Notes under the pieces: model-generated
Databases searched by the model: none
What the model saw: the letters and a program-made list of their open reading frames with translations, nothing else
Told to the model about the DNA's origin: nothing
In this document: piece by piece, positions 33,571-53,942 of the stretch
Layout of the letters: the number at the start of each line of letters is the position of its first letter
How positions within the stretch are numbered: position 1 is the stretch's first letter
From: Alphaproteobacteria bacterium
Lineage (GTDB): Bacteria > Pseudomonadota > Alphaproteobacteria > CAAHEQ01 > UBA3637
NCBI GenBank assembly: GCA_045605805.1
Contig: JAZUQR010000026.1
Span: 6,101 to 70,100, forward strand
Reading direction: 5' to 3'
Length of the DNA stretch: 64,000 nt
Program-made: the position numbers and the translations under genes

Positions 33571-33633
33571 GTGGCATATTTCCCCCCTAAAAAGGATTGG
33601 CTCTCTATACCCAAACGGCAGTTATGGCCATGT

Positions 33634-34563: not shown

Positions 34564-34591
34564 ATATTTTTCATCGCCTCATTTCAGGCAC

Positions 34592-34633
34592 GAAAAAAGC
34601 CCGTTTCAAACGGGCTGAATCTTAAATTGGTGG
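34592..34633. repeat. 42-bp direct repeat identical to 53901-53942 (tRNA-Ala 3' end plus terminator hairpin); putative att site, left island boundary
   Basis: Exact 42/42 match. Sequences diverge immediately outside. Confidence 0.7.
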
Positions 34634-34813
34634 TGTTACTTGATTTTTGAACGAAAAGGATGCATTTGTCCTTTGCTTTTGGGGCATTTTGCAAATGACT
34701 TGTATGCAAAAATAGTGTTGCTTATCGTCAAAAATGCACCTTTTCAAAATATAAGTTGATAAATCTGTAAATAAGAGCATGTATGGTGATCTCCTCAATT
34801 GAAAGGAGAATAC

Positions 34814-34909
34814 ATGGAAAAACAACTTAAACTCTTGGCTCAAATCATCCTGCCAACGCTCTTAACCGTATTGAAAGATAATAAAAAAAATAAAAAACAC
34901 CGATCTTAA
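34814..34909 (+). CDS. Possible 31-aa hydrophobic/Lys-tailed small peptide
   Basis: Strong RBS gaaaggagaatacATG. 'MEKQLKLLAQIILPTLLTVLKDNKKNKKHRS'. Confidence 0.2.
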   Translation: MEKQLKLLAQIILPTLLTVLKDNKKNKKHRS

Positions 34910-34926
34910 GCCAAAAAAGGATACCT

Positions 34927-35397
34927 CTACTTTTCGGTTTTTTTATAGAGAATAAAGTGAGGTAATTTATCCATATCTATATAATTAAACATTTTATAAT
35001 TAGCTCGTCTGGCTTCAGGAGATAAGGTGTACTTTCTTAAATGATCCTTAGGGACGAAAGGATAGAACCAAATCTCATGATGTGAAACACCTTTTTCTTT
35101 CCATTTAAAATTGAGAATTAACAACGGAGGTAAAATCCCAGCTTTCAAAACTTTTTCCATAATGTCCCAACCGGCTCCACGAACAACGGATGAAGGTTTA
35201 TGGTTAGCACTTTTAATTTGGGCGCGAAAATTACAGCCAGTACATTGAATATCACACAGCGGATAATTGTTTGGTAAAAGCATTAACTTTTTACCGCCAT
35301 TAGGACAACAGACCAAATCTACAACTTCTTGTTCCCCAAGCTTTCCATTTTCCTGGTTAATTGACATTTCTACCTCCATATCTGTTGTTATATACAT
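34927..35397 (-). CDS. Hypothetical protein with Cys-cluster (CC-x11-C-x3-C-x2-C, zinc-ribbon-like)
   Basis: ORF with 'CCPNGGKKLMLLPNNYPLCDIQCTGC'. Confidence 0.4.
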   Translation of the reverse strand: MYITTDMEVEMSINQENGKLGEQEVVDLVCCPNGGKKLMLLPNNYPLCDIQCTGCNFRAQIKSANHKPSSVVRGAGWDIMEKVLKAGILPPLLILNFKWKEKGVSHHEIWFYPFVPKDHLRKYTLSPEARRANYKMFNYIDMDKLPHFILYKKTEK

Positions 35398-35508
35398 AAT
35401 AACAGCTGAAAGTTTTAGAATTTACAATATTATTCAAAAATTTTTCTATTTCACTGGACTTCTTCGTTTTTCCAAGCATTCATTGTAATGTAACGAAAGG
35501 AGTTTATT

Positions 35509-35763
35509 ATGAATACAGTTAAAGTTTATTTGGTGCGAAAACCTTTGGATTTTGAAGAAGTAAAAAACTTATGCAAAAAGTATGCGCATAAGGCCGAAGA
35601 GATCTTAATTGAAGAAACTGTCAACCTACCACCAACTTGGTATGAGGAGTTTTGCCAACGCCCATTGGATAACTACATTTTCTTATCCGGTAAAGGCGGT
35701 TATGATGATTTAGGCCACCGCAAAGTAGTTGCTATAAAATGCCTAGGCAAGCCAACGCTCTAG
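35509..35763 (+). CDS. Small protein family A (paralog of 50738-51046); ends at an in-frame TAG
   Basis: RBS aaaggag. 'YIFLSGKGGY' shared with paralog. Confidence 0.55.
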   Translation: MNTVKVYLVRKPLDFEEVKNLCKKYAHKAEEILIEETVNLPPTWYEEFCQRPLDNYIFLSGKGGYDDLGHRKVVAIKCLGKPTL

Positions 35764-35809
35764 GTTGATCCTTCCGGCTCAAGCTATTGCCGATATATGG
35801 GAGTAGAAA

Positions 35810-36046
35810 ATGAAAAATTATAATGACATTCCTCCAAATTACAAAATCAGCATGCCGATGGTTTATAACCACGCAATTAGAGTACTTGATAGGCTGGATA
35901 GACGACTGAGCAGACTTAACACCCCAGCGCTACCGATTAAATACAAATACGAAATCAATCGTCTAGAACATAAACTGGAACAAATGGTCGCTAAATACAA
36001 AGCCATTGAAAAGGAGTTGGAATATGTCCGAACCAAAATATCCTGA
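35810..36046 (+). CDS. Hypothetical small coiled-coil protein
   Basis: RBS gggagtag. Absent from the paralogous cassette. Confidence 0.3.
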   Translation: MKNYNDIPPNYKISMPMVYNHAIRVLDRLDRRLSRLNTPALPIKYKYEINRLEHKLEQMVAKYKAIEKELEYVRTKIS

Positions 36047-36227
36047 GATAACTGTGCACCTGGCAGGTGAAAATGGGAATGCTTTTTATATTTTAGGCAA
36101 ATGTCGTTCGGCGATGAGGCGTGCTAACATCTCCAAAGAAGAACAAGATGAATTTTACCGCCAAGCCACCGCCAGCGACTATAATCACTTATTCATCACC
36201 TGTATGGAATGGTTTAATGTAGAATAG
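36024..36227 (+). CDS. Small protein family B (paralog of 50530-50727)
   Basis: RBS aaggag. 'KYPEITVHLAGENGNAFYILG' conserved with paralog 'KYPDIIVQLTGKDGNAFNILG'. Confidence 0.55.
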   Translation: MSEPKYPEITVHLAGENGNAFYILGKCRSAMRRANISKEEQDEFYRQATASDYNHLFITCMEWFNVE

Positions 36228-36292
36228 GTCTATTTTTCTTGATTTTTTATGAATTAAAGGATATGCTGATTAAAAATCAGGAGGAAATAGCT

Positions 36293-37216
36293 ATGCAACC
36301 CAAATTTTTACATTCTTTTGTGACGCGTTCTCATAAAGGCGTTTATGGCATTATTCGGAAAAATAATCAGATTTTACTCATCCGTAAAGCACGTGGTCCC
36401 TATACAGGGCTTTATGATTTGCCCGGTGGAAGTCCGGAAGCTGATGAAACACCTGAACAAACAGTGGCTCGTGAAATCAAAGAAGAAACAAATTGTGATT
36501 TAATTTCTTGCACCAACCAACGTGAAAAAACAATTTTCTTTTCCAAATTTACCAAAGAAAGTGGAGAAGAAGGCTGTATGCAACACACGGGGATTTTGTT
36601 TGATGTTAAGGTGGCGGGTGAACCCACAACCCAAGGGGATGGATTAGATTCCAATGGAGCTGTTTGGGTAGATATCAATACTTTATCCAGTCAAAATGCA
36701 ACACCTTTTGTTTTAATGGGCTGTGGTAAGGAAGTTATCAATTTAGCCAATGAAGAGGATTACCCTGTGGATGTCGCTGTGCGTGGGGAACCTATCCCCG
36801 AAGGAAGGTGTCCCATGATTGCAGGTCTCTTTTTGTTCAACTCTAAAGGCAATATTATTTTGCAGAAAGTGGCTTTATCAAAGAAAACAGATCCGGGGAA
36901 ATGGAGTTATTCTGCTGCTGGGCATGTGGATGCTGGTGAAACTTATGAACAGGCTGCCTTACGTGAATTAAGCGAAGAAATGGGAATTAAGGCCTCCGGC
37001 ATAACCTTTGTTGGAAAAGGCCATATATTAAAGAACGGCAATCCTCGTGCTTTTCATCATGTATTCAAGGTGATTTCTGATGATAAGATTACTTTTGAAC
37101 CGACCGAGGTAGCCGAAGTTAAAGAATGGACTATTCCGGAATTAAAAGAGCAAATAGGGACTCACCCCGAACAATTCAAAGATATTTTTGCCCAAATTTT
37201 TATGGAGGTCTTTTAA
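36293..37216 (+). CDS. Tandem (double) Nudix hydrolase
   Basis: Two Nudix boxes: 'GGSPEADETPEQTVAREIKEETNCD' and 'GHVDAGETYEQAALRELSEEMGI'. Confidence 0.75.
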   Translation: MQPKFLHSFVTRSHKGVYGIIRKNNQILLIRKARGPYTGLYDLPGGSPEADETPEQTVAREIKEETNCDLISCTNQREKTIFFSKFTKESGEEGCMQHTGILFDVKVAGEPTTQGDGLDSNGAVWVDINTLSSQNATPFVLMGCGKEVINLANEEDYPVDVAVRGEPIPEGRCPMIAGLFLFNSKGNIILQKVALSKKTDPGKWSYSAAGHVDAGETYEQAALRELSEEMGIKASGITFVGKGHILKNGNPRAFHHVFKVISDDKITFEPTEVAEVKEWTIPELKEQIGTHPEQFKDIFAQIFMEVF

Positions 37217-37229
37217 TCAAGGAGGAAAC

Positions 37230-37664
37230 ATGTCAGGACCAGAAAGATTTAAAGTACCCGTTGGGATTTTTATAATGCTACGTCAAGACGATAAAGTTTT
37301 GTTGCAGCTGAGGCAAAATTGCTCGTTCAGTGGATATTGGGGATTCGTTGGTGGCCATTTGGATGGAAATGAACAGATCATCTCTGCCGCTATTCGTGAA
37401 GCAAAAGAGGAAGTCGGGGTGGATATTTTACCGGACGATTTGACCTTAAAGACCATTTGCCACAGTAATAAAGGCGAAGAGTACCTGCAATTTTATTTTG
37501 AATGTCGCAAGTGGTTAGGTGAAATTGAAAATAAGGAGCCCCACAAATGCGAACGCTTGGAATGGCATGAATGGAATAAGCTCCCTGAGCATACTTGTCC
37601 CTATTTGAAGGAAGCAGTAAGCAAAATCAATTCAGGAATTTCTTTTTACGAGGATACTTTTTAA
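37230..37664 (+). CDS. Nudix hydrolase
   Basis: 'GGHLDGNEQIISAAIREAKEEVGVD'. RBS aaggagg. Confidence 0.75.
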   Translation: MSGPERFKVPVGIFIMLRQDDKVLLQLRQNCSFSGYWGFVGGHLDGNEQIISAAIREAKEEVGVDILPDDLTLKTICHSNKGEEYLQFYFECRKWLGEIENKEPHKCERLEWHEWNKLPEHTCPYLKEAVSKINSGISFYEDTF

Positions 37665-38254
37665 TGCTGAATAAACTTATTTACTTAACGACAAATCCTC
37701 ATAAAGTTCAAGAAGCCAATGAATTTCTTATTAAGAAATATGGGTTTAATTTGGAAATCATGAAACCTTCTTTTGAAGTGCTGGAGATTCAAGCAAAAAC
37801 TTGTGGCGAGGTTGCGAAATTTAGCGCTAAGTATGGGGCTGAAAAACTGGGAGTTCCGGTTTTGAAATCCGATTCAGGACTTTATATCGAAGCATTGGGC
37901 GGTTTGCCAGGACCTTATAATGCCTATTTTGACAAGCAAATAGGAACAGAAAAGTTTTTGGATATGATGAAAGATATCCCAAATAGGCATGCTAAATTGG
38001 AACATTGTTTTGCTTATTGTGAGCCAGGACAAGAACCCATCTTGTTTACAGGGGGAAGTACGGGGCGTATTTCTTATGAAGCCAAAGGAGAGAAAGGGCG
38101 TTGGCATGACAAGTTTTATATCCCTGATGGGGAAGAAAAAACACTCAGCGAATTACGCGCCATCAACCATGAATATGAGGCACAATTTTGGGGACATGCC
38201 TTGGATGACTTTGCAAAATGGTACAAAGAAAAATTAGAAAAGGATAAAATTTAG
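37664..38254 (+). CDS. Ham1/Maf-superfamily non-canonical purine NTP pyrophosphatase (ITPase-like)
   Basis: 'LTTNPHKVQEAN' and 'SDSGLYIEALGGLPGPYNAYF' motifs. TAATG overlap with upstream gene. Confidence 0.7.
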   Translation: MLNKLIYLTTNPHKVQEANEFLIKKYGFNLEIMKPSFEVLEIQAKTCGEVAKFSAKYGAEKLGVPVLKSDSGLYIEALGGLPGPYNAYFDKQIGTEKFLDMMKDIPNRHAKLEHCFAYCEPGQEPILFTGGSTGRISYEAKGEKGRWHDKFYIPDGEEKTLSELRAINHEYEAQFWGHALDDFAKWYKEKLEKDKI

Positions 38255-38268
38255 TGAAAGGATAACAA

Positions 38269-38850
38269 ATGCAATTACCAGAACAAATTGAATCAGAACG
38301 GATTATTTTAAAGCACCCTATGAAACCGACCTTTAAATTGGCTGAGGAGCTTTACGCGATTGTGGATAAATCCAGAAATACTTTAAGCGAATGGCTCCCT
38401 TGGGTGGATAAAACGAACTCTGTAGAGGATGAATTTACTGGATATCTGGTGAGTCTGAATCAAAAACATTGGGATGAAGGAAATGGTTTCGGTTATCTTA
38501 TTTATCAAAAGGAAACAAATCAGATTTTAGGCGTTGTGGATTTATGCCATGTTGAGGAAAAACATCAATCCGCCGAAATCGGGTATTGGCTCTCTGATGA
38601 CGCAACAGGTCATGGGTATATGCAAGAGGCTGTGCGTGCGTTGGAAAGCGAGGCCTTTCAAAATGGACTTAACCGGATTATCATCAGAAATGATACTTTG
38701 AATATACGCTCTGCCCATGTGGCTGAACGCTGTGGTTATATTTTGGAAGGTGTCATGCGTCAAGATTGTTGGGATGATTATCATCAGCATTTACGTAATA
38801 CCAATATCTGGAGCAAACTCAAATCCGAATGGGAGAAAGAACAAAAATGA
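38269..38850 (+). CDS. GNAT acetyltransferase (RimJ/RimL-like)
   Basis: 'IGYWLSDDATGHGYMQEAVRAL' motif. Confidence 0.7.
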   Translation: MQLPEQIESERIILKHPMKPTFKLAEELYAIVDKSRNTLSEWLPWVDKTNSVEDEFTGYLVSLNQKHWDEGNGFGYLIYQKETNQILGVVDLCHVEEKHQSAEIGYWLSDDATGHGYMQEAVRALESEAFQNGLNRIIIRNDTLNIRSAHVAERCGYILEGVMRQDCWDDYHQHLRNTNIWSKLKSEWEKEQK

Positions 38851-40058
38851 TTTCACTCAAATCAGCCCCTAGATGGTTATCTATTGCTTATGCCTTAACA
38901 TCGGCATTGTTTTGCCTGCCGACATTAATGCTTTTTTATGGGTTTAAAGGTGTTGGTATGGGGGATTTTTTCTTGATTCAAGGGATATCAAATCTCACTG
39001 TATTTTTTATGGAAGTTCCAACCGGCTATATCGGTGATTTGTTTTCCAGAAAACACACTTTAATTATCGGGGTATTGTTTTGGATCTTGGGGCATGTTAT
39101 TTGGATTTTGGGTTCAGGATTTTTCATTATTTTACTGGGGGAATTGTTATTTGCATTAGCGATTGCTTTCATTTCCGGCACGGCGGAAGCATATTTATAC
39201 GATTTATTGAAAAAACGACATAAAGAAAGTTTATTCCATAAAAAATATGCTAAAATGAAAATGTTGGATGGAATTGCTTTGATGGTGGCTACGCTGACCG
39301 GTGCTTTTATCTATCAATTTTTGGGGCCAACCATTCCGTTATACTTAACAATTTTCTGTTTAATGTTAAGTGTTGTTATTTTATGGCAATTACCGGATGT
39401 TCCCGAATCCAGACGTATTGTTGACAAAGATAAAAGCAAATGGCAGGATATTTTGGATATTTCCAAATATGCCGTTAAACATCCTGAAATAAAATGGCTG
39501 ATGCTTTTACCGGCGGTGTATGGGACATTAACGCTTATTTTGATGTGGGGATTACAATCCGTTATGGTATTTCATCAATTACCTGTATTTGTTTTCAGTT
39601 TGATTTTAGGGATAAACGCATTGATGAGAACTTTTTGGTCGGGCGTTTCCGGTCGGATATTGGAAAAAATAAACCTTTCCGGAACCATAAAATTGCAAAG
39701 TTTAATTATTATCATTGCCTCTTTGGGGGCATGTATATCGGCCTATGTTCCGTTATGGGGTGTTTATATATGTTTGGGCTTGATGATTATCGGATCAGCC
39801 TCCAGTTCTTTATCCAGTATCACAACATCTGTTTTGGTCAATCATAGGATTCAATCCAATGAACGGGCGACAATTTTATCGGTTAAATCAATGCTGGCAA
39901 AGGCTTTTCATGGGGTGGGACTTATCTGCTTGAAACCCTTGTTTGACGGAATAGGTGTCGGACCAACTTTTATGGTATCTGCCCTGCTTTTAATCCCTAT
40001 TCTGATTTGTGCAAGACACCTGTATAAGATGAAGTTAAGGATAATGAAAGGGGACTGA
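38847..40058 (+). CDS. MFS transporter
   Basis: 12 TM helices. ATGA overlap with upstream stop. Confidence 0.7.
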   Translation: MISLKSAPRWLSIAYALTSALFCLPTLMLFYGFKGVGMGDFFLIQGISNLTVFFMEVPTGYIGDLFSRKHTLIIGVLFWILGHVIWILGSGFFIILLGELLFALAIAFISGTAEAYLYDLLKKRHKESLFHKKYAKMKMLDGIALMVATLTGAFIYQFLGPTIPLYLTIFCLMLSVVILWQLPDVPESRRIVDKDKSKWQDILDISKYAVKHPEIKWLMLLPAVYGTLTLILMWGLQSVMVFHQLPVFVFSLILGINALMRTFWSGVSGRILEKINLSGTIKLQSLIIIIASLGACISAYVPLWGVYICLGLMIIGSASSSLSSITTSVLVNHRIQSNERATILSVKSMLAKAFHGVGLICLKPLFDGIGVGPTFMVSALLLIPILICARHLYKMKLRIMKGD

Positions 40059-40059
40059 T

Positions 40060-40953
40060 ATGCTGATACTGAACATCAATGGGCCAATGAATTCTGGGAA
40101 ATCTACGGTTTCTAAGATTTTGGTGAATATGCTCCCTAACGCCACTTTTATTGAAGTGGATGAATTAATGAGTGATGAGGAACAAGAAAAACTGGGGCTA
40201 TCCCTGCAACAAGGGTGGCGGGAACGTCATAAACGATTAAATCAGAAATTAAGGGCTCTTAAAAAATCGCATGAGTATGAAACTGTGATTTTTGCTTATC
40301 CGATTGCTGACAATACTTATCAGGATTGGAAAATGCTGGAGGATAACCACACAAAGTTTTTGAACATTACCCTTGCGCCCAGTTTGGAAGAATGTTTGAA
40401 AAATCGTGGCACACGAGAACTCACCGATTGGGAAAGAAATCGCATTCGTGAAATGTATGAAGAGGGATATCAAAACCGCCCATACGCCGACTTTATCATC
40501 AATAATGACCATCAAACACCCAAAGAAACTGCTGAGATTATTAAAGGATTTATTGAACATGCTCTCTCCCCAAAACAACAATGGTTACATTTGGTGGAAA
40601 AACGTTGGCCCGCCCTTTTGAACGGAGAAAAAACTTCCACTTTCCGTTTCAATGAAGGTTTCATCCATAAGGGCTTCTTGGTTTATAAAGACTGCCCAAA
40701 CGAACAGTTGGCCGAGGTTGTTTATGTGACACATGTGTATTATGTGCCTTTGCGCCAAGCCAATGAAATAGACGGATATGATGAGCATACACCGGATATG
40801 GAAACAGCCTTAAAACAAATGCGTGTTCATTATCCAGATATTACTTTGGATACGCCCATTTTATTTGCTCAGCACTTAGGAGTTCCTGAAACCAAACAGA
40901 AATATCCAGAAGAAGTTAAAGAAATATTGGAGAAAATGAATGTCAAAAACTAA
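40060..40953 (+). CDS. P-loop small-molecule kinase (CPT/zeta/uridine-kinase-like) fused to a C-terminal ASCH-like domain
   Basis: Walker A 'INGPMNSGKSTV'. C-terminal 'LLNGEKTSTFRFNEGFIHKG' ASCH-like. Confidence 0.5.
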   Translation: MLILNINGPMNSGKSTVSKILVNMLPNATFIEVDELMSDEEQEKLGLSLQQGWRERHKRLNQKLRALKKSHEYETVIFAYPIADNTYQDWKMLEDNHTKFLNITLAPSLEECLKNRGTRELTDWERNRIREMYEEGYQNRPYADFIINNDHQTPKETAEIIKGFIEHALSPKQQWLHLVEKRWPALLNGEKTSTFRFNEGFIHKGFLVYKDCPNEQLAEVVYVTHVYYVPLRQANEIDGYDEHTPDMETALKQMRVHYPDITLDTPILFAQHLGVPETKQKYPEEVKEILEKMNVKN

Positions 40954-41347
40954 ATTATCAGTATGTGGTGTCATTGTACATCAGAGCAAATTTCTAATAG
41001 TCAAACGTTCTGAAACAGATGACTTTTTGCCAAATTGTTGGGAATTCCCTGGTGGTGGTGTAGAAGATGGTGAAACAATATCCGAAGCCTTGAAACGAGA
41101 AATAAAAGAAGAAATAGGTTGGGATATATCAAATGAATATCCAAAACTCATCGGTATTTCTGAAGAGTTTATGAATGAAGAAAAAACAGAAAGATATTTA
41201 CAATTAAATTATAAGATTGTTATGGACACAGAACCCAACATGACACTCAGTTCCGAACATGTCGCTTTTGATTGGGCGGACACGACCGATTCCAGATTGG
41301 ACGATTTTCTAAAAGAGATTATTAGGCAACTGAATACAACAATCTAA
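40940..41347 (+). CDS. Nudix hydrolase
   Basis: 'GGGVEDGETISEALKREIKEEIGWD'. Confidence 0.7.
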   Translation: MSKTKLSVCGVIVHQSKFLIVKRSETDDFLPNCWEFPGGGVEDGETISEALKREIKEEIGWDISNEYPKLIGISEEFMNEEKTERYLQLNYKIVMDTEPNMTLSSEHVAFDWADTTDSRLDDFLKEIIRQLNTTI

Positions 41348-46808: not shown

Positions 46809-46810
46809 AT

Positions 46811-48022
46811 TCAAACCTCCACATTATCGACATTGATTTTGCCGGACATGAGTTTGGGTAATAAAGTGTCTCGAAGTGCAGACAACTGGATATTTTCTCT
46901 TTGGTTTGCTTTAATTTGTGCAAACATTGGAGAAATCACAGAATGGAAATCTTTCAATTCAGATTCTTCTGGCATAACAAAAGGCATTGATTTAATAATT
47001 TTTGAATTAACGGCAGTTGCAATGGATGACGTGCTCCCCATTGTTTGAAAATTAAAGTTTTTCAAATAATAATACAAATATTCGTTTATTTCTTTTTTAT
47101 CTGTTCCAAAATGAGCAATGGCTTCGTTTGTTGCCATTTCTCCATCTGTAATTGCAATTCTTCCAACAGTCAGTTTAAAGCTCAATAGAACAGTATTATC
47201 TGGTACAATTTTAACATTAAATTTGGAAATTGACTCTGGAACTAAATATTCAGAACTATCAGAAATATACAGCCCACAATTTCCCATATCGGATATAGAT
47301 ATCCATTTAATATCATTAGTGTTTTTTGAAAACCATTCAGGCTCTTTTCGGGGAGGAGTTTTCCCGATTGTAATATTAAAAAATTCTTCAGCTTTTATCG
47401 TTTTTCTGTTTGGATTTATTTTATCTATGAACCAAGATTTAAAGAGGGCTTGGGCTTGGAGTTCGAGGTTTTGATTGATTTTGTTGTTCAGCTCTATCTT
47501 ATCATCCAGAGCCCCCAACACCCCCGCAATCTTCCTCTGCACCTCCACTGGCGGTATATTTACAGGGATGGAATACAAATGTCCAACCTTTATGCTAGGT
47601 TGTACAGAACTTATATTCAATGCTTGTATATAACTTTGTATATTGGGTTGAGATAAACAATAATACATGAATGTAGAGTCAATGTCCTCTTTATACTGCA
47701 TGGCAATGATGTTTTGCGCTATACACCCCTTATCTTGCGGCATTAAAGCAACTTTTCCAATGTTTCCAACAGTTGTTATTAAAACATCTTTTGGGTTGGG
47801 ATGTCCACTTCGAAACCAATTCTGATACGTTTCAATATTAACAAATTTTGATGCAGAAGCCAAATCTGGGTATCTATCTCCAGCTTTTAATAAGTTGCTT
47901 TCAAGTAGAGGAATGATACCTTCCGTATCCAAGGGTGCATTCTTTCCCCGGTTATCAATTGTATTTTTAACCAAATCCCCTAATTTAATCTCTCGCCAAC
48001 CTGACATTATATTATTTGCCAT
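46811..48022 (-). CDS. hsdS: Type I restriction-modification specificity subunit
   Basis: Two target-recognition-domain halves with conserved central/C-terminal helices. Start MANNIMSGW with RBS aggga. Confidence 0.8.
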   Translation of the reverse strand: MANNIMSGWREIKLGDLVKNTIDNRGKNAPLDTEGIIPLLESNLLKAGDRYPDLASASKFVNIETYQNWFRSGHPNPKDVLITTVGNIGKVALMPQDKGCIAQNIIAMQYKEDIDSTFMYYCLSQPNIQSYIQALNISSVQPSIKVGHLYSIPVNIPPVEVQRKIAGVLGALDDKIELNNKINQNLELQAQALFKSWFIDKINPNRKTIKAEEFFNITIGKTPPRKEPEWFSKNTNDIKWISISDMGNCGLYISDSSEYLVPESISKFNVKIVPDNTVLLSFKLTVGRIAITDGEMATNEAIAHFGTDKKEINEYLYYYLKNFNFQTMGSTSSIATAVNSKIIKSMPFVMPEESELKDFHSVISPMFAQIKANQRENIQLSALRDTLLPKLMSGKINVDNVEV

Positions 48023-48032
48023 CAAATATTCC

Positions 48033-48917
48033 CTATTTTTTAATAAGTTCATATAGCAAAGGAAAGTTACTTTTTTGGTAAGAATCCAAGTATTGGCTTG
48101 GAATGTCCTTTAATGTTTCATTATTAAATTCATAGATATCAACAATTTCCCTTGAAACAATTTTTTCTTCACCATTTTTCTGTAATTTATTATATCTTAC
48201 CAAGGCTAAAATAGTATCATTTTGATTGCTACGACGCAATGGATGCTTTCCTAATAAAAACTCCTCTCTAAACTTCTGGTCTTTTATTGATGCAATTAAT
48301 GTTGTATTATTTTCTAAATCTTTAAAATTCCAATTTCCCTCTGTTTCCGTATTAATTGGTTTGTATATAACTAGTTTCTGGATTTTATATACGGGATCTA
48401 AATTTCTTATGATATCCCCTTCCACATATTTGAGAAAATCTTTTCTTTTAATTGGAAAGGTATGTTCATTAGAAAAACCAACCCCATTAATATGGTTATT
48501 TAGCCAACACCTTTTATAAAAGTTTGATTTTGCATTAAGTGCAGCATCCAAATTTATCGATGCAGGAATTTCGATATGTTCTTGCAACATGAAGCCAGAA
48601 AACATTTCAGAAATATATTGTCCGGCGTTTTCCCCCAATTCATTTAGGCTCTTCCCTGTTAATCCTTTAATAAAACCAGGCACAAATTCATTAAACAAAA
48701 ATGATCCCAAAAACAAACAAATTGTAAATTTTCCTTTAAAAGAACCTTCTTCTGTTGCATTTAAATATATTTGATAATCCGTGTCCTTAAAACAGGTTTT
48801 TGTAATATTTTTATATATCAATTCAATTTGCTGTGATAAAAAAATAAAATCAGATAATTCCAACGCATGTGTTGGGGTATCTAAATGTAATATAAATTCA
48901 CTCTTTTGTTCAGTCAT
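48033..48917 (-). CDS. Uncharacterised protein embedded between hsdM and hsdS (294 aa)
   Basis: ATGA overlap with hsdM stop. No recognisable motif. Confidence 0.55.
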   Translation of the reverse strand: MTEQKSEFILHLDTPTHALELSDFIFLSQQIELIYKNITKTCFKDTDYQIYLNATEEGSFKGKFTICLFLGSFLFNEFVPGFIKGLTGKSLNELGENAGQYISEMFSGFMLQEHIEIPASINLDAALNAKSNFYKRCWLNNHINGVGFSNEHTFPIKRKDFLKYVEGDIIRNLDPVYKIQKLVIYKPINTETEGNWNFKDLENNTTLIASIKDQKFREEFLLGKHPLRRSNQNDTILALVRYNKLQKNGEEKIVSREIVDIYEFNNETLKDIPSQYLDSYQKSNFPLLYELIKK

Positions 48918-50425
48918 TCAACCTCCCATCCAATTTGTTTCAATTTTGTTTTGATTTCTTCTTGAAGTGTAGAGGATTGTTTGAACATCTCGGAAAGTTC
49001 AGCCGTCAAACGTTTCATTTTGTCTTCAAACGGTTCGCCATCATCGGCTTGTTCCTCTATCCCCACATAACGACCTGGCGTCAAGATGTAATCTTGCTTG
49101 GCAATATCCTCAGTTGTTGCAACAGCACAGAAACCTTTCACATTTTCCAATGTGCCATTTTGGAATGCGGTAAATGTATCGGCCAATTTCTTGATGTCTT
49201 TATCTGTGAAGTCACGGTGTTTTCTGTCCACCATATATCCCATCTTGCGTGCATCAATGAAAACTGTGCGGCCTTTTTGTTGCTTATTCTTGGTAATAAA
49301 CCACAATGTGACCGGAATTGTGACGCTATAGAACAATTGTGTTGGCAGAGCAATAATACCTTCCACTAAGTCAGCCTCAATAATCCGCCGGCGAATATCG
49401 CCTTCACCACTATTGGTAGAGGAAAGGGCTCCGTTCGCCAAGACTAAACCGATTTTACCCCCTGGTGCCAAATGATGTATCATATGCTGAATCCACGCAT
49501 AGTTAGCATTACCTGCCGGAGGTGTTCCAAATTCCCATCGAGGATCGTCTTTTAATTTGTCTTGTCCCCAGTTGGATAGGTTAAATGGAGGATTCGCCAT
49601 AATGAAGTCAAACTTTTCGTGTTGGTGCAGGTCGTTAAAGAATGTATCGGCCTGATACGGTCCCAAATTGGCATCTATCCCACGAATAGCCATATTCATT
49701 TTTGCCATTTTCCAAGTATCTGCGTTGGATTCTTGACCATATACAGAGATTCTGTCACGATTGCCACTGTGGGCTTGCAAGAACTTAACCGATTGCACAA
49801 ACATGCCACCCGAACCACAGCATGGGTCATAAACGCGGCAGTTGTCAAAGGGTTTCAAAACTTCTACAATTGTGCGGACAATGCTGGATGGAGTGTAAAA
49901 TTCACCGCCTTTTGTTCCTTCATACGCGGCAAACTGAGCAATGCAGTATTCATAAGTTCTGCCCAACAGGTCTTTGTCCTTATCCGTTTCGGACATATCT
50001 ATGTTGTTTGTAAACAAATCCACAACATTGCCCAAAACTCGTTTATCCAAATCTTGGTTAGCATAGTTCTTTGGAAGAACGTTTTTCAGGGATTTATTTT
50101 CAGCCTCAATAGCACGCATGGCTTCATCAATCACCATACCGATTTCGGGAGTATGGGCGGCTTCGGCTATTTTGCTCCAACGAGCTGCCTCAGGAACATA
50201 GAAAATGCCTTCCATTATATAAGCATCTTTATCGTTTTCAAAACCATCCCCTTCTGCGACCAATTGGTTATAACGCTTTTCAAATGCAAAAGAAATGTAG
50301 CGCAGGAAAATTAAACCCACAATGACTTTGCGGTAATCCGCCGCAGGAATATGTCCCCACAGTTCGCATGCGGCTTCCCAGATTTGCTTTTCAAAACCTA
50401 TATTTGCGTTGTTTTTCCCTGCCAT
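48914..50425 (-). CDS. hsdM: Type I restriction-modification N6-adenine DNA methyltransferase
   Basis: 'FIMANPPFNLSNW' motif IV, 'VYDPCCGSGGM' motif I, HsdM N-terminal domain. RBS aaagaggt. Confidence 0.9.
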   Translation of the reverse strand: MAGKNNANIGFEKQIWEAACELWGHIPAADYRKVIVGLIFLRYISFAFEKRYNQLVAEGDGFENDKDAYIMEGIFYVPEAARWSKIAEAAHTPEIGMVIDEAMRAIEAENKSLKNVLPKNYANQDLDKRVLGNVVDLFTNNIDMSETDKDKDLLGRTYEYCIAQFAAYEGTKGGEFYTPSSIVRTIVEVLKPFDNCRVYDPCCGSGGMFVQSVKFLQAHSGNRDRISVYGQESNADTWKMAKMNMAIRGIDANLGPYQADTFFNDLHQHEKFDFIMANPPFNLSNWGQDKLKDDPRWEFGTPPAGNANYAWIQHMIHHLAPGGKIGLVLANGALSSTNSGEGDIRRRIIEADLVEGIIALPTQLFYSVTIPVTLWFITKNKQQKGRTVFIDARKMGYMVDRKHRDFTDKDIKKLADTFTAFQNGTLENVKGFCAVATTEDIAKQDYILTPGRYVGIEEQADDGEPFEDKMKRLTAELSEMFKQSSTLQEEIKTKLKQIGWEVE

Positions 50426-50529
50426 TTTGGACCTCTTTTCGTTTAGAATCATAATATCGTAAATTCTAGCCGATTTTTTCTGAAAAGGCAATCAGAAATA
50501 TAAGGTCTGTTGTATTTAATTATGGTGCT

Positions 50530-50727
50530 TTACTCTACCTCAAACCATTTCATGCAGGTGGCAAGCAAGTGGTCGTAATTGCCGGAGGTGGCTTCTGCCT
50601 GAAAGGCATCTTGTTCTTTTTGATTCAAACCGGCTTGACGCATGGCTCTTAAACAGATACCTAGGATATTAAAGGCATTCCCGTCTTTACCGGTCAACTG
50701 GACAATAATATCAGGATATTTTGGCAT
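50530..50727 (-). CDS. Small protein family B' (paralog of 36024-36227)
   Basis: RBS aaggag. Conserved 'DHLLATCMKWFEVE' versus 'NHLFITCMEWFNVE'. Confidence 0.55.
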   Translation of the reverse strand: MPKYPDIIVQLTGKDGNAFNILGICLRAMRQAGLNQKEQDAFQAEATSGNYDHLLATCMKWFEVE

Positions 50728-50737
50728 GACGATCTCC

Positions 50738-51046
50738 TTATTTAACCTCAAGCCCCAAGTAGCGGCAGTAGCTTGATCCTGACGGGTCGGCGTAAAGTGT
50801 CGGCTGACCGTCACATTCCAGGGCGATAACCTGACGTTGGTTGTCGTCGTTATATCCGCCTTTGCCGGATAAAAAGATGTAGTTATCCAGAGGGCGTTGG
50901 CAGACAGCCTGATACCAAGCAGGCGATAAATGAACTGTTTCGGCTATCACCACTTCTTTGGCTTGGTGTGCATATTTTTGGGTTAAATCCCGAACTTCGG
51001 AAATATCGGAGGGCTTGCGGACCATGTAAGTTTTAACTGTTTTCAT
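50738..51046 (-). CDS. Small protein family A' (paralog of 35509-35763)
   Basis: RBS aaaggag. 'VCQRPLDNYIFLSGKGGYND'. Confidence 0.55.
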   Translation of the reverse strand: MKTVKTYMVRKPSDISEVRDLTQKYAHQAKEVVIAETVHLSPAWYQAVCQRPLDNYIFLSGKGGYNDDNQRQVIALECDGQPTLYADPSGSSYCRYLGLEVK

Positions 51047-51151
51047 GATAATCTCCTTTCGCATCACAATGAACGCTCTTTTTCGAAGAATTATCCAGTT
51101 ATTTCTGTACTAAATCGCAAGAAATATGCATTATTTTGAGGGGGTGACCAG

Positions 51152-51318
51152 CCAGAAGTGACCAGTGACCAGCCAGGAAAAATTGGGTCCCCTTATAACC
51201 CTTGTGTTTATTGGGGTTTGAGATATACCCGACCAGCCAGAATTTTTCGGTTTCGCTAGAAATATGGCGCGGCTTGCGTCCCCGCATATGAAATCTCGCC
51301 AGGAAGGACCTCTGGCCA
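51152..51318. repeat. Conserved ~170-bp non-coding element, copy B (three GTGACCAG iterons plus conserved core)
   Basis: Aligns with 33399-33570. Lies in the 5' leader of the RM operon and 3' of the nitroreductase gene. Confidence 0.6.
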
Positions 51319-51363
51319 GATACCTGATCACCCGAGTGGCTAGTAATCCAAGCAACCAAGAAA

Positions 51364-51879
51364 TTATAAAAATTGAACGGTATCGGACAAGGGCTTCTTG
51401 TTCGTATGCGTTGGCGCTGGTGCCGCCGAGGCTGTCGGATAACCGAACATCATGAGCAAAACGGGCACTTCGTTTTCGGGTAAATCAAAAGCCTTGCGCG
51501 TTTCATCCGGGTTAAACATATTCACCCAAGTGGAATGAACGCCCAAGTCTGCGGCCTGCAACATCATGTGTGTTGCCACAATGGATGCATCCTCAACGCC
51601 CGAAGTAATAGTCTCATCAGTTGGGTTGTGCCATTCTTGATTTTTATCATAGCAAATAATCATGGCAAGCGGGGCATTATAATGGCAGGGTGTCACAGCC
51701 CGCAACTTTTCCATGGCCGCCGGTGATTGAACAACATAAACCTTTTGCGGTTGGTTGTTTTTGGCGGTAGGGGCCACCCGTCCGGCTTGTAAAATCTTTT
51801 GGATTTTTTCATCTTCAACCGGTTTGTTGTCATAGCTTCTTTGCGTATAACGCACTGTACTCAGTTCTTCAAATGTCAT
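51364..51879 (-). CDS. Nitroreductase-family protein
   Basis: 'RRSYDNKPV...AGRVAPTAKNNQP' NfsB-like N-terminus, 171 aa. Confidence 0.7.
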   Translation of the reverse strand: MTFEELSTVRYTQRSYDNKPVEDEKIQKILQAGRVAPTAKNNQPQKVYVVQSPAAMEKLRAVTPCHYNAPLAMIICYDKNQEWHNPTDETITSGVEDASIVATHMMLQAADLGVHSTWVNMFNPDETRKAFDLPENEVPVLLMMFGYPTASAAPAPTHTNKKPLSDTVQFL

Positions 51880-51958
51880 TGTTTATCCTTTCTGTTTGTG
51901 ATTATTATATAGCACTGTTTTTTCAAAAAAAGAAAGTAAATTAGTAAGCTCAAAACTT

Positions 51959-52723
51959 TTAGCCTTCTTCATTGGTTTTGGCATATTCTTCCCCGTACAT
52001 TTCCCATTGGTCAACCGAACGCTTCCAATCTTTAATTGGGTTGCCATACTTATCACGCCACTTTTGGCGGGAATAATAAGCGTGGAATTGGTAAGGGTTG
52101 ATTCTATGATAGTTCATTGTTTGACAATACTCTTCCACTTGTTCTATGGACGGGCTGTTATCACTTGATCCCAACAGTTGTCCGATTGGAACCGGACCTT
52201 TAGAAATTGAGCCTTGCCTTGGCACACTCCAATTCATTGCCAAGCCTGAGGGAGTTTCTTTTTCATTATATACATTCTGGGCATTCTTTCCTTTCTTATT
52301 TATAGCCGCAGGTAGTTCGCCGGTCGTCCGCAGGTAGTTCGCGCCTGAGTCGCATTGGGACAATTCATCACCGCCTAACACATTGAAATCATTATATTTT
52401 AACATCTTTATAAGTAGTCCGTTTGCTAAGCGTTTTGTATCAACTTCCCCGGTTTTTTTGAGTTTTGCTATAACCCGCTTGATTTATTGCGGGGATTTTT
52501 TTAAGGCCTCTGAAATCACTGCATAACTGGTCAGCAATTCGCCTTTATGGATAACATATTCATAAAGTTCTTTATCTTGGAAATTTGCGCGCAGTAAGAG
52601 ATAAAGATATACTTGGCACACATTCTCATCCGGAAGCCAGCGCCAGTTTAAATAACGTCTGTCTAATTTGACAAAGCCAAGAGGAAAATGCGGATCATCC
52701 GTTTTTTGTTTGTTTTGAGACAT
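51959..52723 (-). pseudogene. Phage/ICE-type replisome-organiser (DnaD-like) gene split by frameshift in an A7 run (~52486)
   Basis: N-fragment 'FVKLDRRYLNWRWLPDENVCQVYLYLLLRAN', C-fragment '...KYGNPIKDWKRSVDQWEMY'. The alternative frame joins them. Confidence 0.5.
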
Positions 52724-52740
52724 CAGGTGTGTCCTTTCTA

Positions 52741-53714
52741 ATGAGAGGGAAAATGGTTAATCTTTGACGGGTGGAAAACCGAACAGTTTTCTTTGTTCGG
52801 GCCAACTGGCCGGGATAGAGGCCCTCAATAATTCTCGGGCGGTCATAGTTTTGGGTTGAGCTCCCCGTAAAATGGCATCAATAATATCCGGTGCCAAAAA
52901 GGTAAGCCGAATTTGCGCCCCGATATAGGCCGGATCCTGATGATATACTTCGGCCAGTTCATGCAGGTTTAAGTTCTTGGCTTCCTAGGTTTCACGATAA
53001 GTAAAACCGTTGGCCAAAATCTTAATGAGATAGCGGTCTTCTTTCTTGGATGGCTTTTCACCTGAGGTCAAATACAGCATATCCGACACCGTTTCGGGCA
53101 AATGAATCTCTTTGCTCCCACGATGTGTAATCAGGTTAAAGGGAACCGTTGATTCCATCAGTTCCGGTTTTAATTCATTGGGTTTCAAACTGGCTTTCAG
53201 GCGTTTGTCCATCAGGTGAAGGGCCAAAGGTTTCCAGACCACAATAATTTTATCGGCAAAAATCGTTACCCCGTGAACCAGCAGGCTGACTATTTTTTCC
53301 TTTTGCGTGCCGGTCAGTTGTTGAAAGACAGAGTCAGTTTCACGCATGGCATAAAAGACTTCGCTTTCTTTTAAGTCCGGTTGCACTTGGCAGGCTTCCT
53401 GAGCCAGCGCCTGTAAAACATACGGGGATTTAATCAGTGGATTGAGCAAGTCCATCACCAAATTATCCAACAAGTGCATGGGGATGGCATTCAGCCGACA
53501 TGAATGAGGTCCGTATTTTTTGTGTATTTGATTTGAATAGGTTTTGGGCGGATTCAAATGTTTCTTTATCAATAATCGCTTGATGTTGGCCCGGGAAAGA
53601 AGTCCCTTTATGCGTAATCTCACCGATATAAACACGATTATTAAGCATACTCCTTAAAAAGGTCCAGCCGGGAACTTTTCCCCGAAAAGTGCAATTTTCC
53701 CGTAAAAGGCGCAA
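52741..53714 (-). pseudogene. Large serine recombinase remnant (internal TAG, frameshift, catalytic N-domain missing)
   Basis: 'NNRVYIGEITHKGTSFPGQHQAIIDKETFESAQ' recombinase-domain motif. C-terminal 'LAPDIIDAILRGAQPKTMTARELL' after in-frame TAG. Confidence 0.55.
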
Positions 53715-53900
53715 AGTTATCGCTTTTTATGGATTACCTAGCAAAGAAAGTTTTGGTTGGTTCATCTGCTTAAATAGCACTTTTGCTTTCTTTTCCCAAA
53801 AAACACAGATGAATTGTGGTAAATGGGCATTTTCACATTGAGCCTAAAATGCATCACAAGAGCTTTTGTAACGGGCTTATCATTCCCCTGTTTCAAATAT

Positions 53901-53942
53901 GAAAAAAGCCCGTTTCAAACGGGCTGAATCTTAAATTGGTGG
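53901..53942. repeat. 42-bp direct repeat copy 2 (tRNA-Ala last 6 nt plus downstream terminator); right island boundary
   Basis: Identical to 34592-34633. Hairpin agcccgttt/aaacgggct followed by T-run on minus strand acts as tRNA-Ala terminator. Confidence 0.7.

What the first reader, a model, noticed from the sequence alone, without database searches (positions are those of the whole stretch)
34592..53942. About 19-kb island bounded by 42-bp direct repeats derived from the tRNA-Ala 3' end
An exact 42-bp sequence occurs at 34592-34633 and 53901-53942. It covers the last 6 nt of tRNA-Ala (CCACCA) plus its terminator hairpin. The second copy overlaps the tRNA gene itself, which is the classic attL/attR signature of site-specific integration at a tRNA 3' end. 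Just inside the tRNA-proximal boundary are a degraded large serine recombinase (internal TAG, catalytic domain missing) and a frameshifted phage-type replisome organiser. This fits an immobilised integrative element. Its cargo is the R-M operon and the Nudix operon.
Basis: seen in the sequence. Interest (0 to 1): 0.6.

Follow-up and report, generated by a model that had tools for sequence, protein, structure and literature searches.

The report
Decayed serine-recombinase island at tRNA-Ala
The 19-kb stretch is a dead mobile genetic island inserted at the end of an alanine tRNA gene; it belongs to a family, seen here in gut and rumen metagenomes, that uses a large serine recombinase, a type of enzyme rarely linked to tRNA targets.

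Summary
The exact 42-bp repeat (34592-34633 / 53901-53942) is real and not due to chance. It covers CCACCA of tRNA-Ala(CGC) plus a terminator-like hairpin. The 19.3 kb between the copies is foreign by composition. It is absent from the four closest relatives found, which keep EpmA-tRNA-Ala but have other terminators.

The repeat is not a generic terminator. Together with about 220 bp beyond it, it is the tRNA-proximal end of an element family found after tRNA-Ala(GGC or CGC) genes in at least eight unrelated host contexts. Intact members encode HTH_17, DUF2924, a 570-aa large serine recombinase and a DnaD-like loader, followed by an iteron-bearing region ("X") and defence cargo.

The window copy is immobilised. 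Two microhomology deletions and a TAG ruin the recombinase. The loader has a TAA nonsense codon, not a frameshift.

The locus would then be a two-member tandem array.

This is a new member of a known kind. It is of moderate interest because serine integrases at tRNA genes are rarely reported.

The parts
53937..54012 (-). Host tRNA-Ala(CGC), the integration target. A perfect sigma-70-like promoter lies at 54055-54027.
   Evidence: The tRNA follows EpmA in all five relatives L006-L010.
53901..53942 (-). R2, the right copy of the 42-bp repeat: CCACCA plus the terminator-like hairpin (53907-53925). It is the tRNA-proximal end of element E_a (attL-like junction).
   Evidence: The same 42-mer (93-100% identical; 100% in the copies retrieved by the exact-match scan) follows tRNA-Ala genes in L010, L012-L018, L021-L024, L032 and L040.
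53701..53900 (-). 23-nt flank (type 2) plus the 'P-arm', a conserved non-coding proximal arm of the element family.
   Evidence: 80-90% identical in the P-arm-bearing loci L010, L012, L013, L017, L018, L021-L024 and L040 (partial copies in L015, L016 and L019), whereas the 200 nt upstream of the tRNAs are unrelated.
53704..53709 (-). Scar of a roughly 2.4-3.9-kb deletion at a CCTTTT microhomology. It removed the defence genes, HTH_17, DUF2924 and recombinase residues 1-201.
   Evidence: The intact arrangement is seen in L021 and L024.
52757..53709 (-). Remnant of the large serine recombinase (residues 202-570 of the intact protein). It also carries a 145-bp deletion at about 53512-53524 (CACAAAAAAT microhomology, which shifts the frame) and CAG>TAG at 52985-52987.
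   Evidence: Pfam Recombinase domain. tblastn against the L024 recombinase gives 88-96% identity. Junction sequences.
51959..52723 (-). DnaD-like helicase-loader ('replisome organiser') pseudogene with a single CAA>TAA nonsense codon at 52484-52486. There is no frameshift.
   Evidence: phrog_2514. 96% aa identity in one frame to the L024 254-aa protein.
51364..51879 (-). Nitroreductase, cargo in the variable slot between the loader gene and X.
   Evidence: Pfam. Absent at this position in L024. Present in L015, and as a remnant in L013.
51142..51308 (-). X2, a conserved non-coding region of the family: a 78-nt block, an AT-rich spacer and GGCTGGTCAC iterons. It is a candidate replication origin.
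   Evidence: It lies directly 3' of the loader gene in L021, L024 and L025. No Rfam match.
50530..51067 (-). Small conserved backbone genes A' and B' (B' = phrog_1933, function unknown).
   Evidence: 88-92% DNA identity to L021 and L024.
42440..50491 (-). Type I R-M cargo: hsdM 48914-50491, orf294, hsdS 46811-48052, orf159, orf284, hsdR 42440-45487.
   Evidence: Pfam. GC 0.339 for 42440-48917. L024 carries a different type I R-M at the same position.
41322..42467 (-). LMW phosphotyrosine phosphatase, DUF3977 and ASCH genes (cargo).
   Evidence: Pfam.
36239..41347 (+). Nudix module (cargo): double-Nudix, Nudix, Ham1, GNAT, MFS, kinase-ASCH, Nudix.
   Evidence: Pfam. The double-Nudix protein matches PADLOC candidate PDC-S07 at 1e-19.
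35509..36227 (+). A / orf78 / B, a second and inverted paralogous set of the A'/B' backbone genes.
   Evidence: Inverted repeats I1 and I2. phrog_1933.
34927..35397 (-). DpnI-like (methyl-directed restriction-like) gene.
   Evidence: Pfam DpnI. PADLOC mREase_II. Homologues are widespread and also sit in ordinary chromosomal settings.
34634..34807 (-). 'D-arm', the distal end of E_a, ending ...AAGTAACA directly before the repeat's first bases (CCACCAA).
   Evidence: Found before R in L019 (94%) and, in another context, in L032 and L033 (96%).
34569..34633 (-). R1 (34592-34633) plus the 23-nt type-1 flank (34569-34591): the proximal end of the second family member, E_b.
   Evidence: The stretch is 98.5% identical over 65 nt to the tRNA-adjacent sequence of L010.
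33399..34568 (-). Rest of E_b: GNAT 34039-34563 (+), ASCH 33634-33966 (-) and X1 33399-33566 (type-1 X).
   Evidence: The GNAT/ASCH pair sits between the loader gene and X in family members L040 and L019. GC 0.340.
32572..33315 (+). Acyl-ACP thioesterase, the first housekeeping gene where the chromosome resumes.
   Evidence: Pfam for this gene and its left neighbours MatE, QueA, PriA, CorA and HisRS.

Best explanation
The locus is a tandem array of two decayed members of one family of integrative elements. The family inserts at the 3' end (CCACCAA) of tRNA-Ala genes and encodes a large serine recombinase.

It carries the family backbone: R - flank - P-arm - [HTH_17, DUF2924, recombinase; here deleted or broken] - DnaD-like loader - X - A'/B'. 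Its cargo is a nitroreductase, a type I R-M system, a phosphatase/ASCH group, the Nudix module and a DpnI-like gene. It ends in a distal arm (the D-arm).

E_b runs from 34633 down to about 33399. It is an older, internally deleted member consisting of R1 - flank - GNAT - ASCH - X1.

The element brings its own terminator hairpin (R) for the tRNA. The 42-bp direct repeat exists because E_a inserted between the tRNA and the R end of the resident E_b.

Shown: the repeat, the family, its association with tRNA-Ala, the lesions, and the absence of the island from close relatives.

Inferred: that the serine recombinase is the integrase, that crossover occurs within CCACCAA, that E_a entered by accretion (attP x attL-like recombination, or RecA recombination across R-flank), and that X is a replication origin.

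Both members are now immobile.
For: Family and target. R+flank+P-arm (84-95% identical pairwise among complete copies) follows tRNA-Ala(GGC) or tRNA-Ala(CGC) genes that are only 75-100% identical to one another. The 200 nt upstream are unrelated (52-63%) in all but two pairs.

Presence and absence. The window, L010 and L016 have R after EpmA-tRNA-Ala(CGC). The closer relatives L006-L009 (EpmA 85-91%) lose similarity 3-7 nt past the tRNA and have their own terminators.

Intact members. L021 and L024 show tRNA-R-P-arm-[AbiEii etc.]-HTH_17-DUF2924-recombinase(568/570 aa)-loader-X-A'-B'-cargo. No tyrosine integrase appears in the first 11 kb or so. The recombinase cluster has 358 members.

Decay by deletion. 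L013 and L017 are 99.5% identical upstream, yet L013 lacks the recombinase. L040 lacks DUF2924, the recombinase and the 5' part of the loader gene. The window has two microhomology deletions and two nonsense codons.

E_b as a family member. X1 is a type-1 X, like those of L013 and L015. The GNAT/ASCH pair fills the slot between loader and X in L040 and L019. The same flank|GNAT junction sits alone on a tRNA-Ala(GGC) in L032 and L033.

An attP-like or tandem junction (D-arm - R - flank - P-arm, with no tRNA) exists in L019.

Composition is foreign from about 33.4 to 53.4 kb. Housekeeping genes resume at 33315.

Precedent. Tandem serine-recombinase islands bounded by 3'-end repeats, some lacking an integration module, are described at Dehalococcoides ssrA (PMC3146451).
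Against: - No experiment, and no excised circle of an intact member, links the recombinase to the tRNA junction.
- The far ends of the intact elements in L021 and L024 lie outside the 10-kb flanks I could fetch, so a second integrase there is not excluded.
- No dyad symmetry typical of serine-integrase att sites was detectable around CCACCAA.
- Serine integrases do not normally recombine attP with attL, so the accretion step may have needed homologous recombination.
- The ASCH/GNAT pair also occurs in plain housekeeping contexts (L029, L034-L039) and next to the orthologous tRNA in L007, where there is no R. It could therefore be host DNA.
- The D-arm also occurs next to PgsA/UvrC in L032, inverted relative to R. 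The model does not explain this.
- More distant recombinase homologues (about 40% identity, Shinella and Ralstonia) have no tRNA nearby.
Confidence: 0.68

Rival explanations
1. A single classical integration. The ancestral chromosome read EpmA - tRNA-Ala - R - flank - GNAT - ASCH - X1 - thioesterase, with R as the host's own terminator. One element, whose attP carried a copy of that 42-65-bp stretch, integrated there. R1 is then the displaced host copy, and the island is exactly 34634-53900.
For: - L032 and L033 show tRNA-Ala(GGC)-R-flank-GNAT-ASCH contiguous with nothing in between, 89.7% identical to window 33528-34633.
- L007 has the ASCH/GNAT pair next to the orthologous tRNA-Ala(CGC), with ordinary genes beyond it and no integrase.
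- The pair lies among housekeeping genes in L029 and L034-L039.
Against: - R is missing from the four closest relatives, L006-L009.
- R-flank travels with the element into at least eight unrelated host contexts.
- X1, an internal element sequence, flanks the pair.
- L040 and L019 show the pair inside family members.
- The segment has GC 0.34 and foreign tetranucleotide usage.
- In L007 the pair is inverted and only 48-60% identical in protein, against 90% for EpmA.
- A serine integrase is not expected to leave a 42-bp duplication at a naive site (general knowledge; short common cores are noted in PMC10654092).
Confidence: 0.22
2. The island was integrated by some other enzyme, such as a tyrosine integrase now lost or encoded at the unseen far end of intact members. 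The serine recombinase would then serve another role (resolution, inversion, or movement of a nested sub-element).
For: - Surveys report that tRNA-gene targets are overwhelmingly used by tyrosine integrases, with serine-integrase cases rare and unproven (PMC4383910, PMC7192596).
- The far ends of L021 and L024 were not seen.
- There are 2-3.6 kb of other genes between R and the recombinase operon.
Against: - No tyrosine recombinase domain appears in the window island, which is bounded on both sides.
- None appears in the first 11-15 kb of L021 or L024.
- The HTH_17-DUF2924-recombinase operon is the only recombination module and is conserved next to the junction in every undeleted member (L010, L012, L017, L018, L020-L025). 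Not every one of these loci contains both the junction and the recombinase gene.
Confidence: 0.07
3. This is not an insertion at all. The repeat would come from a local segmental duplication, or from a terminator motif that recurs in this genome.
For: The repeat contains a generic-looking intrinsic terminator.
Against: - There are only two copies in 64 kb, with none expected by chance.
- Seven of the eight occurrences in the metagenome scan are joined to a tRNA-Ala gene; the eighth, L019, is joined to a D-arm instead.
- The intervening 19 kb is compositionally foreign and absent from relatives.
Confidence: 0.02

Closest known systems
Dehalococcoides ssrA-specific genomic islands (serine recombinase DsiB, CcrB-like; McMurdie et al. 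2011, PMC3146451)
   Same: Serine-recombinase islands inserted at the 3' end of a small stable-RNA gene. They form tandem arrays delimited by direct repeats of that 3' end. The integration module lies next to one boundary. Some array members lack an integration module and are interpreted as cis-mobilisable remnants that joined by accretion. Cargo is low in GC.
   Different: The target there is tmRNA (T-loop), not tRNA-Ala at CCACCAA. The repeat is 20 bp of the RNA gene itself, whereas here 36 of the 42 bp lie downstream of the gene and are brought by the element. The Dehalococcoides module has two recombinases (DsiA and DsiB) and no replication gene. This family has one large serine recombinase with HTH_17 and DUF2924, plus a DnaD-like loader and an iteron region. 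I did not test sequence relatedness of the recombinases.
SCCmec / SCC elements (CcrAB serine recombinases at the 3' end of rlmH/orfX)
   Same: Serine-recombinase islands that target the 3' end of a conserved gene, are flanked by short direct repeats, and stack into composite tandem arrays. This rests on general knowledge and on the discussion in PMC3146451.
   Different: The target there is a protein-coding gene, the host is a Firmicute, two Ccr subunits are needed, and the cargo is resistance genes. Membership was not tested.
Classical tRNA-gene genomic islands with tyrosine integrases (Islander/TIGER class; PMC4383910, PMC7192596)
   Same: An island lies between an intact tRNA gene and a displaced copy of its 3' region. 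The element restores the gene end. Tandem arrays occur. Composition is foreign.
   Different: No tyrosine integrase is present. The repeat covers only 6 nt of the tRNA. Those surveys state that serine integrases were not known to target tRNA genes (2015), and then found only 14 of 297 computational cases, 'experimental proof required' (2020).
Large serine recombinases of proteobacterial prophages (phage WO, Acidithiobacillus phage AcaML1, Ralstonia phages)
   Same: These are the best annotated relatives of the family's recombinase, at 30-44% identity over most of its length. A DUF2924 gene next to the recombinase is also seen in phage WO (PMC11376236).
   Different: Those are full prophages with structural genes. 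The window island, which is bounded on both sides, has no capsid, tail, terminase or conjugation genes. More distant chromosomal homologues have no tRNA nearby.

Membership tests
Site-specific integrative genomic island at a tRNA gene | An intact tRNA gene at one boundary and a direct repeat of its 3' region at the other, in the same orientation. | tested here: met
   Only 6 nt of the repeat are tRNA; 36 nt lie downstream of the gene.
Site-specific integrative genomic island at a tRNA gene | The insert is absent from related genomes that keep the flanking gene and the tRNA. | tested here: met
   L006-L009 have EpmA-tRNA-Ala(CGC), but similarity ends 3-7 nt after the tRNA. The far-side flank (thioesterase/MatE) is not syntenic in these relatives, so no perfectly matching empty site was found.
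Site-specific integrative genomic island at a tRNA gene | Composition foreign to the flanks. | tested here: met
   The tetranucleotide distance is 1.6-2.7 times the backbone mean and exceeds the backbone maximum in every 5-kb chunk from 33.4 to 53.4 kb.
Site-specific integrative genomic island at a tRNA gene | A recombinase gene inside the island, next to the tRNA-proximal boundary. | tested here: met
   The recombinase remnant at 52757-53709 starts 192 bp from R2. It is intact in L021 and L024.
Large serine recombinase (serine integrase) elements | A protein with Resolvase + Recombinase + Zn_ribbon_recom domains. | tested here: met
   The intact homologues P0001, P0122 and P0124 carry PF00239, PF07508 and PF13408. 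The window copy retains only part of the PF07508 region and the C-terminus.
Large serine recombinase (serine integrase) elements | attP and attB share only a short core, usually a 2-bp crossover, with imperfect dyad symmetry in each site. | tested here: inconclusive
   The sequence shared by naive sites, occupied sites and the attP-like junction narrows to CCACCAA. No dyad symmetry above chance was found. The 42-bp identity of R1 and R2 exceeds what a serine-integrase event at a naive site would leave.
Large serine recombinase (serine integrase) elements | The recombinase catalyses integration or excision at these att sites. | not testable with these tools
   This needs an in vivo or in vitro recombination assay, or read-level detection of excised circles and empty sites.
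Tandem array / accretion with a cis-mobilisable remnant (CIME-like) | A second unit, bounded by the same end sequences but lacking its own recombinase, lies next to the first. | tested here: met
   R1-flank-GNAT-ASCH-X1 begins with the family's proximal end and closes with its X region. The same unit occurs alone on a tRNA-Ala(GGC) in L032 and L033.
Tandem array / accretion with a cis-mobilisable remnant (CIME-like) | The remnant can be mobilised in trans or together with its neighbour. | not testable with these tools
   The only evidence is that the unit occurs in two different chromosomal places (the window and L032).
Prophage / phage satellite / ICE | Virion, packaging or conjugation genes. 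| tested here: not met
   Pfam, PHROGs and PADLOC searches of the main ORFs (up to 39 examined) in and next to the island found no capsid, terminase, tail, relaxase or T4SS genes.

The most novel reading that the evidence does not exclude
This would be a specific family of large serine integrases whose natural target is the CCACCAA 3' end of tRNA-Ala genes (both GGC and CGC isoacceptors). The element supplies a replacement terminator for the tRNA, replicates from an iteron origin (X) with its own DnaD-like loader, and spawns 1-3-kb non-autonomous R...X derivatives that stack into arrays. It would be the first well-documented serine-integrase lineage dedicated to a tRNA target. The recombinase cluster has 358 member sequences, and members occur in human-gut and ruminant metagenomes.
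Probability: 0.5. Interest if true: 0.55.

Novelty: new member of a known kind. Interest (0 to 1): 0.4.

Why it matters
In the window itself this is an ordinary outcome: a dead defence-cargo island at a tRNA gene.

The family behind it is more useful. Two systematic surveys state that serine integrases were not known to target tRNA genes, or did so in only 14 of 297 unproven computational cases (PMC4383910, PMC7192596). Here the same junction recurs in at least eight unrelated host contexts, next to an intact 570-aa serine recombinase operon. That gives a concrete enzyme, a candidate attP and naive attB sequences that could be tested directly.

If the family is active, it offers a serine integrase with a conserved, multi-host tRNA landing site. 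It would also be a natural example of accretion and decay of such elements in little-studied gut Alphaproteobacteria.

Tried and rejected
- Generic terminator: rejected. There are only two copies in the window. In the metagenome scan, seven of eight copies adjoin a tRNA-Ala gene; L019 does not.
- Viral origin: three scans of viral contigs (R, D-arm, X core) found nothing.
- X as a structured RNA: no Rfam match, even at E<=1.
- Exact-protein look-ups for window EF-P and GNAT gave only short contigs or nothing.
- DpnI-like gene as a marker of the element's far end: rejected. Homologues are widespread (including Patescibacteria) and sit in ordinary chromosomal settings in L027 and L028. L026 links the gene to a different degraded recombinase (38% identity).
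- Dyad symmetry around CCACCAA: not above chance.
- D-arm-like sequence after type-1 X copies: none found.
- tRNA association of more distant recombinase homologues (Shinella, Ralstonia): none.
- Literature on phage AcaML1 gave no att information.
- TAG/TAA read as recoded glutamine codons: considered because both stops replace Gln codons. Rejected as unsupported, since these are two single C>T changes in a copy that also has two deletions.

Full report
**1. The observation**

The 42-mer occurs exactly twice in the window, at 34592-34633 and 53901-53942. None is expected by chance, and no third copy appears with up to 3 mismatches. tRNA-Ala(CGC) lies at 53937-54012 on the minus strand, so the right copy (R2) covers its last six bases, CCACCA, and the 36 nt downstream. 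Both copies contain an 8-bp-stem hairpin followed by a T-run, and the tRNA has a perfect -35/-10 promoter.

Similarity continues weakly for 23 nt beyond the repeat on its left in window coordinates.

The region from 33.4 to 53.4 kb is compositionally foreign. Island GC is 0.382, and 0.339 for hsdS-hsdR, against 0.41-0.43 in the flanks. Every 5-kb chunk exceeds the largest tetranucleotide distance seen in the backbone.

**2. Gene content**

The following reads from the tRNA leftwards in window coordinates, which is forward along the minus strand (Pfam, PHROGs and PADLOC):
- R2, then a 200-bp non-coding arm (the P-arm);
- fragments of a large serine recombinase;
- a DnaD-like helicase loader;
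- a nitroreductase;
- a 167-bp non-coding region (X2);
- two small genes, A' and B' (B' = phrog_1933);
- a type I R-M operon with three embedded unknown ORFs;
- LMW phosphatase, DUF3977 and ASCH;
- on the other strand, a Nudix/Ham1/GNAT/MFS/kinase-ASCH/Nudix module preceded by a second, inverted A/orf78/B set;
- a DpnI-like gene;
- a non-coding distal arm (D-arm, 34807-34634);
- R1.

Left of R1 lie a GNAT gene, an ASCH gene and a second copy of X (X1, 33399-33566; 82-85% identical to X2 in two blocks). Housekeeping genes follow: acyl-ACP thioesterase, MatE, QueA, PriA, CorA and HisRS.

No virion, packaging or conjugation genes were found.

**3. Organism and relatives**

EpmA-based retrieval shows the window comes from an uncultured gut or rumen alphaproteobacterium. 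All five relatives have tRNA-Ala(CGC) right after EpmA.

In the four closest (L006-L009, EpmA 85-91%), DNA similarity to the window stops 3-7 nt after the tRNA, and each has a different terminator. None has the island. The more distant L010 and L016 (EpmA 73-76%) do have R plus the P-arm at 85-90% identity. That pattern fits horizontal spread.

**4. The repeat belongs to a mobile family**

The single metagenome scan with R gave eight loci. In seven of them R directly follows a tRNA-Ala gene, either GGC or CGC. The eighth (L019) has no tRNA.

Look-ups through recombinase and GNAT homologues added L020-L025, L032 and L040. Across these loci:
- the 200 nt upstream of the tRNA are unrelated (52-63%) in all but two pairs;
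- the tRNAs are 75-100% identical;
- the 240 nt from CCACCA onward are 84-95% identical among complete copies.

The sharp change at the tRNA 3' end, in at least eight host contexts, shows that R, the 23-nt flank and the P-arm form the end of an element that inserts at tRNA-Ala. The sequence shared by naive sites, occupied sites and the tRNA-free junction narrows to CCACCAA.

**5. Intact members**

L021 (a 360-kb Hadza gut contig) and L024 (a 230-kb contig) read as follows:

tRNA-Ala(GGC) - R - P-arm - AbiEii and two ORFs (reverse strand) - HTH_17 - 32-aa ORF - DUF2924 - 568/570-aa recombinase (Resolvase + Recombinase + Zn_ribbon) - 254/257-aa DnaD-like loader - X - A' - B' - cargo.

In L024 the cargo is another type I R-M with Fic and a SieB-like gene. 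The recombinase cluster has 358 member sequences. No tyrosine integrase appears in the stretches I could fetch.

The best annotated relatives of the recombinase are prophage large serine recombinases at 30-44% identity (phage WO, AcaML1, Ralstonia phages). DUF2924 next to the recombinase is also known from phage WO.

**6. Lesions in the window copy**

Relative to L021 and L024:
- A deletion of about 3.9 kb (2.4 kb relative to L010) at a CCTTTT microhomology (53704-53709) removed the defence genes, HTH_17, DUF2924 and recombinase residues 1-201.
- A 145-bp deletion at a CACAAAAAAT microhomology (about 53512-53524) shifts the frame.
- CAG>TAG at 52985-52987.
- The loader gene is collinear in one frame with the intact protein (96% identity) and carries a single CAA>TAA at 52484-52486.

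The element cannot move by itself.

**7. X**

X lies directly 3' of the loader gene in intact members. It consists of a conserved 78-nt block, an AT-rich spacer in two sequence types, and two or three GGCTGGTCAC iterons. Four of the five matches to the iteron in the window, allowing up to one mismatch, fall in X1 and X2. It has no Rfam match.

A replication origin served by the adjacent loader is the most economical reading. This is an inference.

Type-1 X copies (window X1, L013, L015) are followed, within about 10 nt of the last iteron, by three different host-like contexts. In that subtype X also behaves as an element terminus.

**8. What R1 is**

Two readings were weighed.

(a) R1-flank-GNAT-ASCH-X1 is ancestral host DNA, and R1 is the displaced native terminator. 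In favour:
- L032 and L033 show tRNA-Ala(GGC)-R-flank-GNAT-ASCH contiguous, 89.7% identical to window 33528-34633.
- L007 has the ASCH/GNAT pair next to the orthologous tRNA without R.
- The pair sits among housekeeping genes in L029 and L034-L039.

(b) It is a second, internally deleted family member. In favour:
- R is absent from the four closest relatives.
- X1 is a family sequence.
- In L040 the pair follows the 3' remnant of the loader gene in an element on tRNA-Ala(GGC).
- In L019 the pair precedes X - D-arm - R - flank - P-arm.
- The slot between loader and X is visibly variable: empty in L024; nitroreductase in the window, L015 and L013; a 227-aa ORF in L021; GNAT-ASCH in L040 and L019.
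- The segment has GC 0.34 and foreign tetranucleotide usage.
- Internal deletion is the family's documented way of decaying. L013 and L017 are 99.5% identical upstream but differ by loss of the recombinase.

I favour (b). The locus is then a two-member tandem array, and E_a inserted between the tRNA and the R end of the resident E_b.

**9. Mechanism and its limits**

A serine integrase is expected to leave only a short shared core at a naive site. A 42-bp identity (65 bp near-identity) therefore fits entry next to a resident R. That could happen by attP x attL-like recombination, as inferred for stacked SCC and Dehalococcoides ssrA islands, or by RecA recombination across R-flank.

I could not detect att-site dyad symmetry. 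I could not test catalysis.

The D-arm also occurs between PgsA and a truncated X in L032 and L033, inverted relative to R, in two independent samples. This remains unexplained.

**10. Comparison with known systems**

The closest analogue in architecture is the Dehalococcoides ssrA genomic island family. These are serine-recombinase islands in tandem at the 3' end of a stable-RNA gene, with direct repeats at the boundaries and some members lacking an integration module (PMC3146451). SCC elements are similar in principle.

Classical tRNA islands use tyrosine integrases. Two surveys state that serine integrases were not known to target tRNA genes, or did so in only 14 of 297 unverified cases (PMC4383910, PMC7192596).

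The island is thus a new member of a known kind. The family's dedicated tRNA-Ala target, with an element-borne terminator, is its most noteworthy feature.

**11. Verdict**

Interest is moderate at 0.4. It comes from the family rather than from the dead copy in the window.

Noticed in passing
window 33634-34563; L007 11656-12563; L029 9601-10675; L032 6980-8048; L034 9103-10525: The divergent ASCH/GNAT gene pair lies next to the 3' end of a tRNA gene in every context seen (tRNA-Ala CGC, Ala GGC, Met, Val). It is sometimes inside the element family and sometimes among housekeeping genes. Either the pair has a mobile history of its own or it has a tRNA-related function. The E. coli ASCH protein YqfB is an ac4C amidohydrolase (from memory, not checked).
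   Followed up: partly
L032 6700-6875 and L033 4-28 versus window 34807-34632: The 176-bp D-arm that precedes R1 in the window is found at 96% identity between PgsA/UvrC and a truncated X (joined at X position 39), inverted relative to R. It appears in two independent samples. No model tried here explains this junction.
   Followed up: partly
window 36239-41347: The Nudix module (double-Nudix, Nudix, Ham1, GNAT, MFS, kinase-ASCH, Nudix) may be a defence or nucleotide-sanitising system rather than housekeeping. The double-Nudix protein matches PADLOC candidate PDC-S07 at 1e-19, and the kinase-ASCH protein weakly matches a viperin-kinase model.
   Followed up: partly
window 45484-48917: Three unknown ORFs are embedded in the type I R-M operon: 294 aa between hsdM and hsdS, and 159 and 284 aa between hsdS and hsdR. 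They have only weak PADLOC hints (PDC-S42, NucC-like). L024 has Fic and SieB-like genes at equivalent positions. This looks like a recurring slot for extra defence genes.
   Followed up: partly
window 35509-36227 (+) versus 50530-51067 (-): The two small backbone genes A and B are present twice in inverted orientation (71-75% DNA identity) at the two ends of the 16-kb cargo block. This suggests the cargo was assembled from parts of two family members.
   Followed up: no
L026 965-2319: In another metagenome, the A/DpnI-like segment (88-91% identical to window 35592-34775) abuts a different, N-terminally truncated and frameshifted large serine recombinase, only 38% identical to this family's.
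   Followed up: partly
window 52484-52486 and 52985-52987: Both in-frame stops in the backbone genes replace glutamine codons by single C>T changes (CAA>TAA, CAG>TAG). I read these as ordinary decay and did not test for recoding.
   Followed up: partly
window 6161-6210 and 7445-7552: There is a 9-bp tandem repeat (four copies) and a 54-bp tandem duplication in the left part of the window. They are probably inside a repetitive coding region and unrelated to the island.
   Followed up: no
L034 9330-9560 (also L035-L039): There are three tandem copies of a roughly 75-bp repeat between the ASCH gene and a degenerate X-like fragment that faces the 3' end of tRNA-Val(GAC).
   Followed up: no
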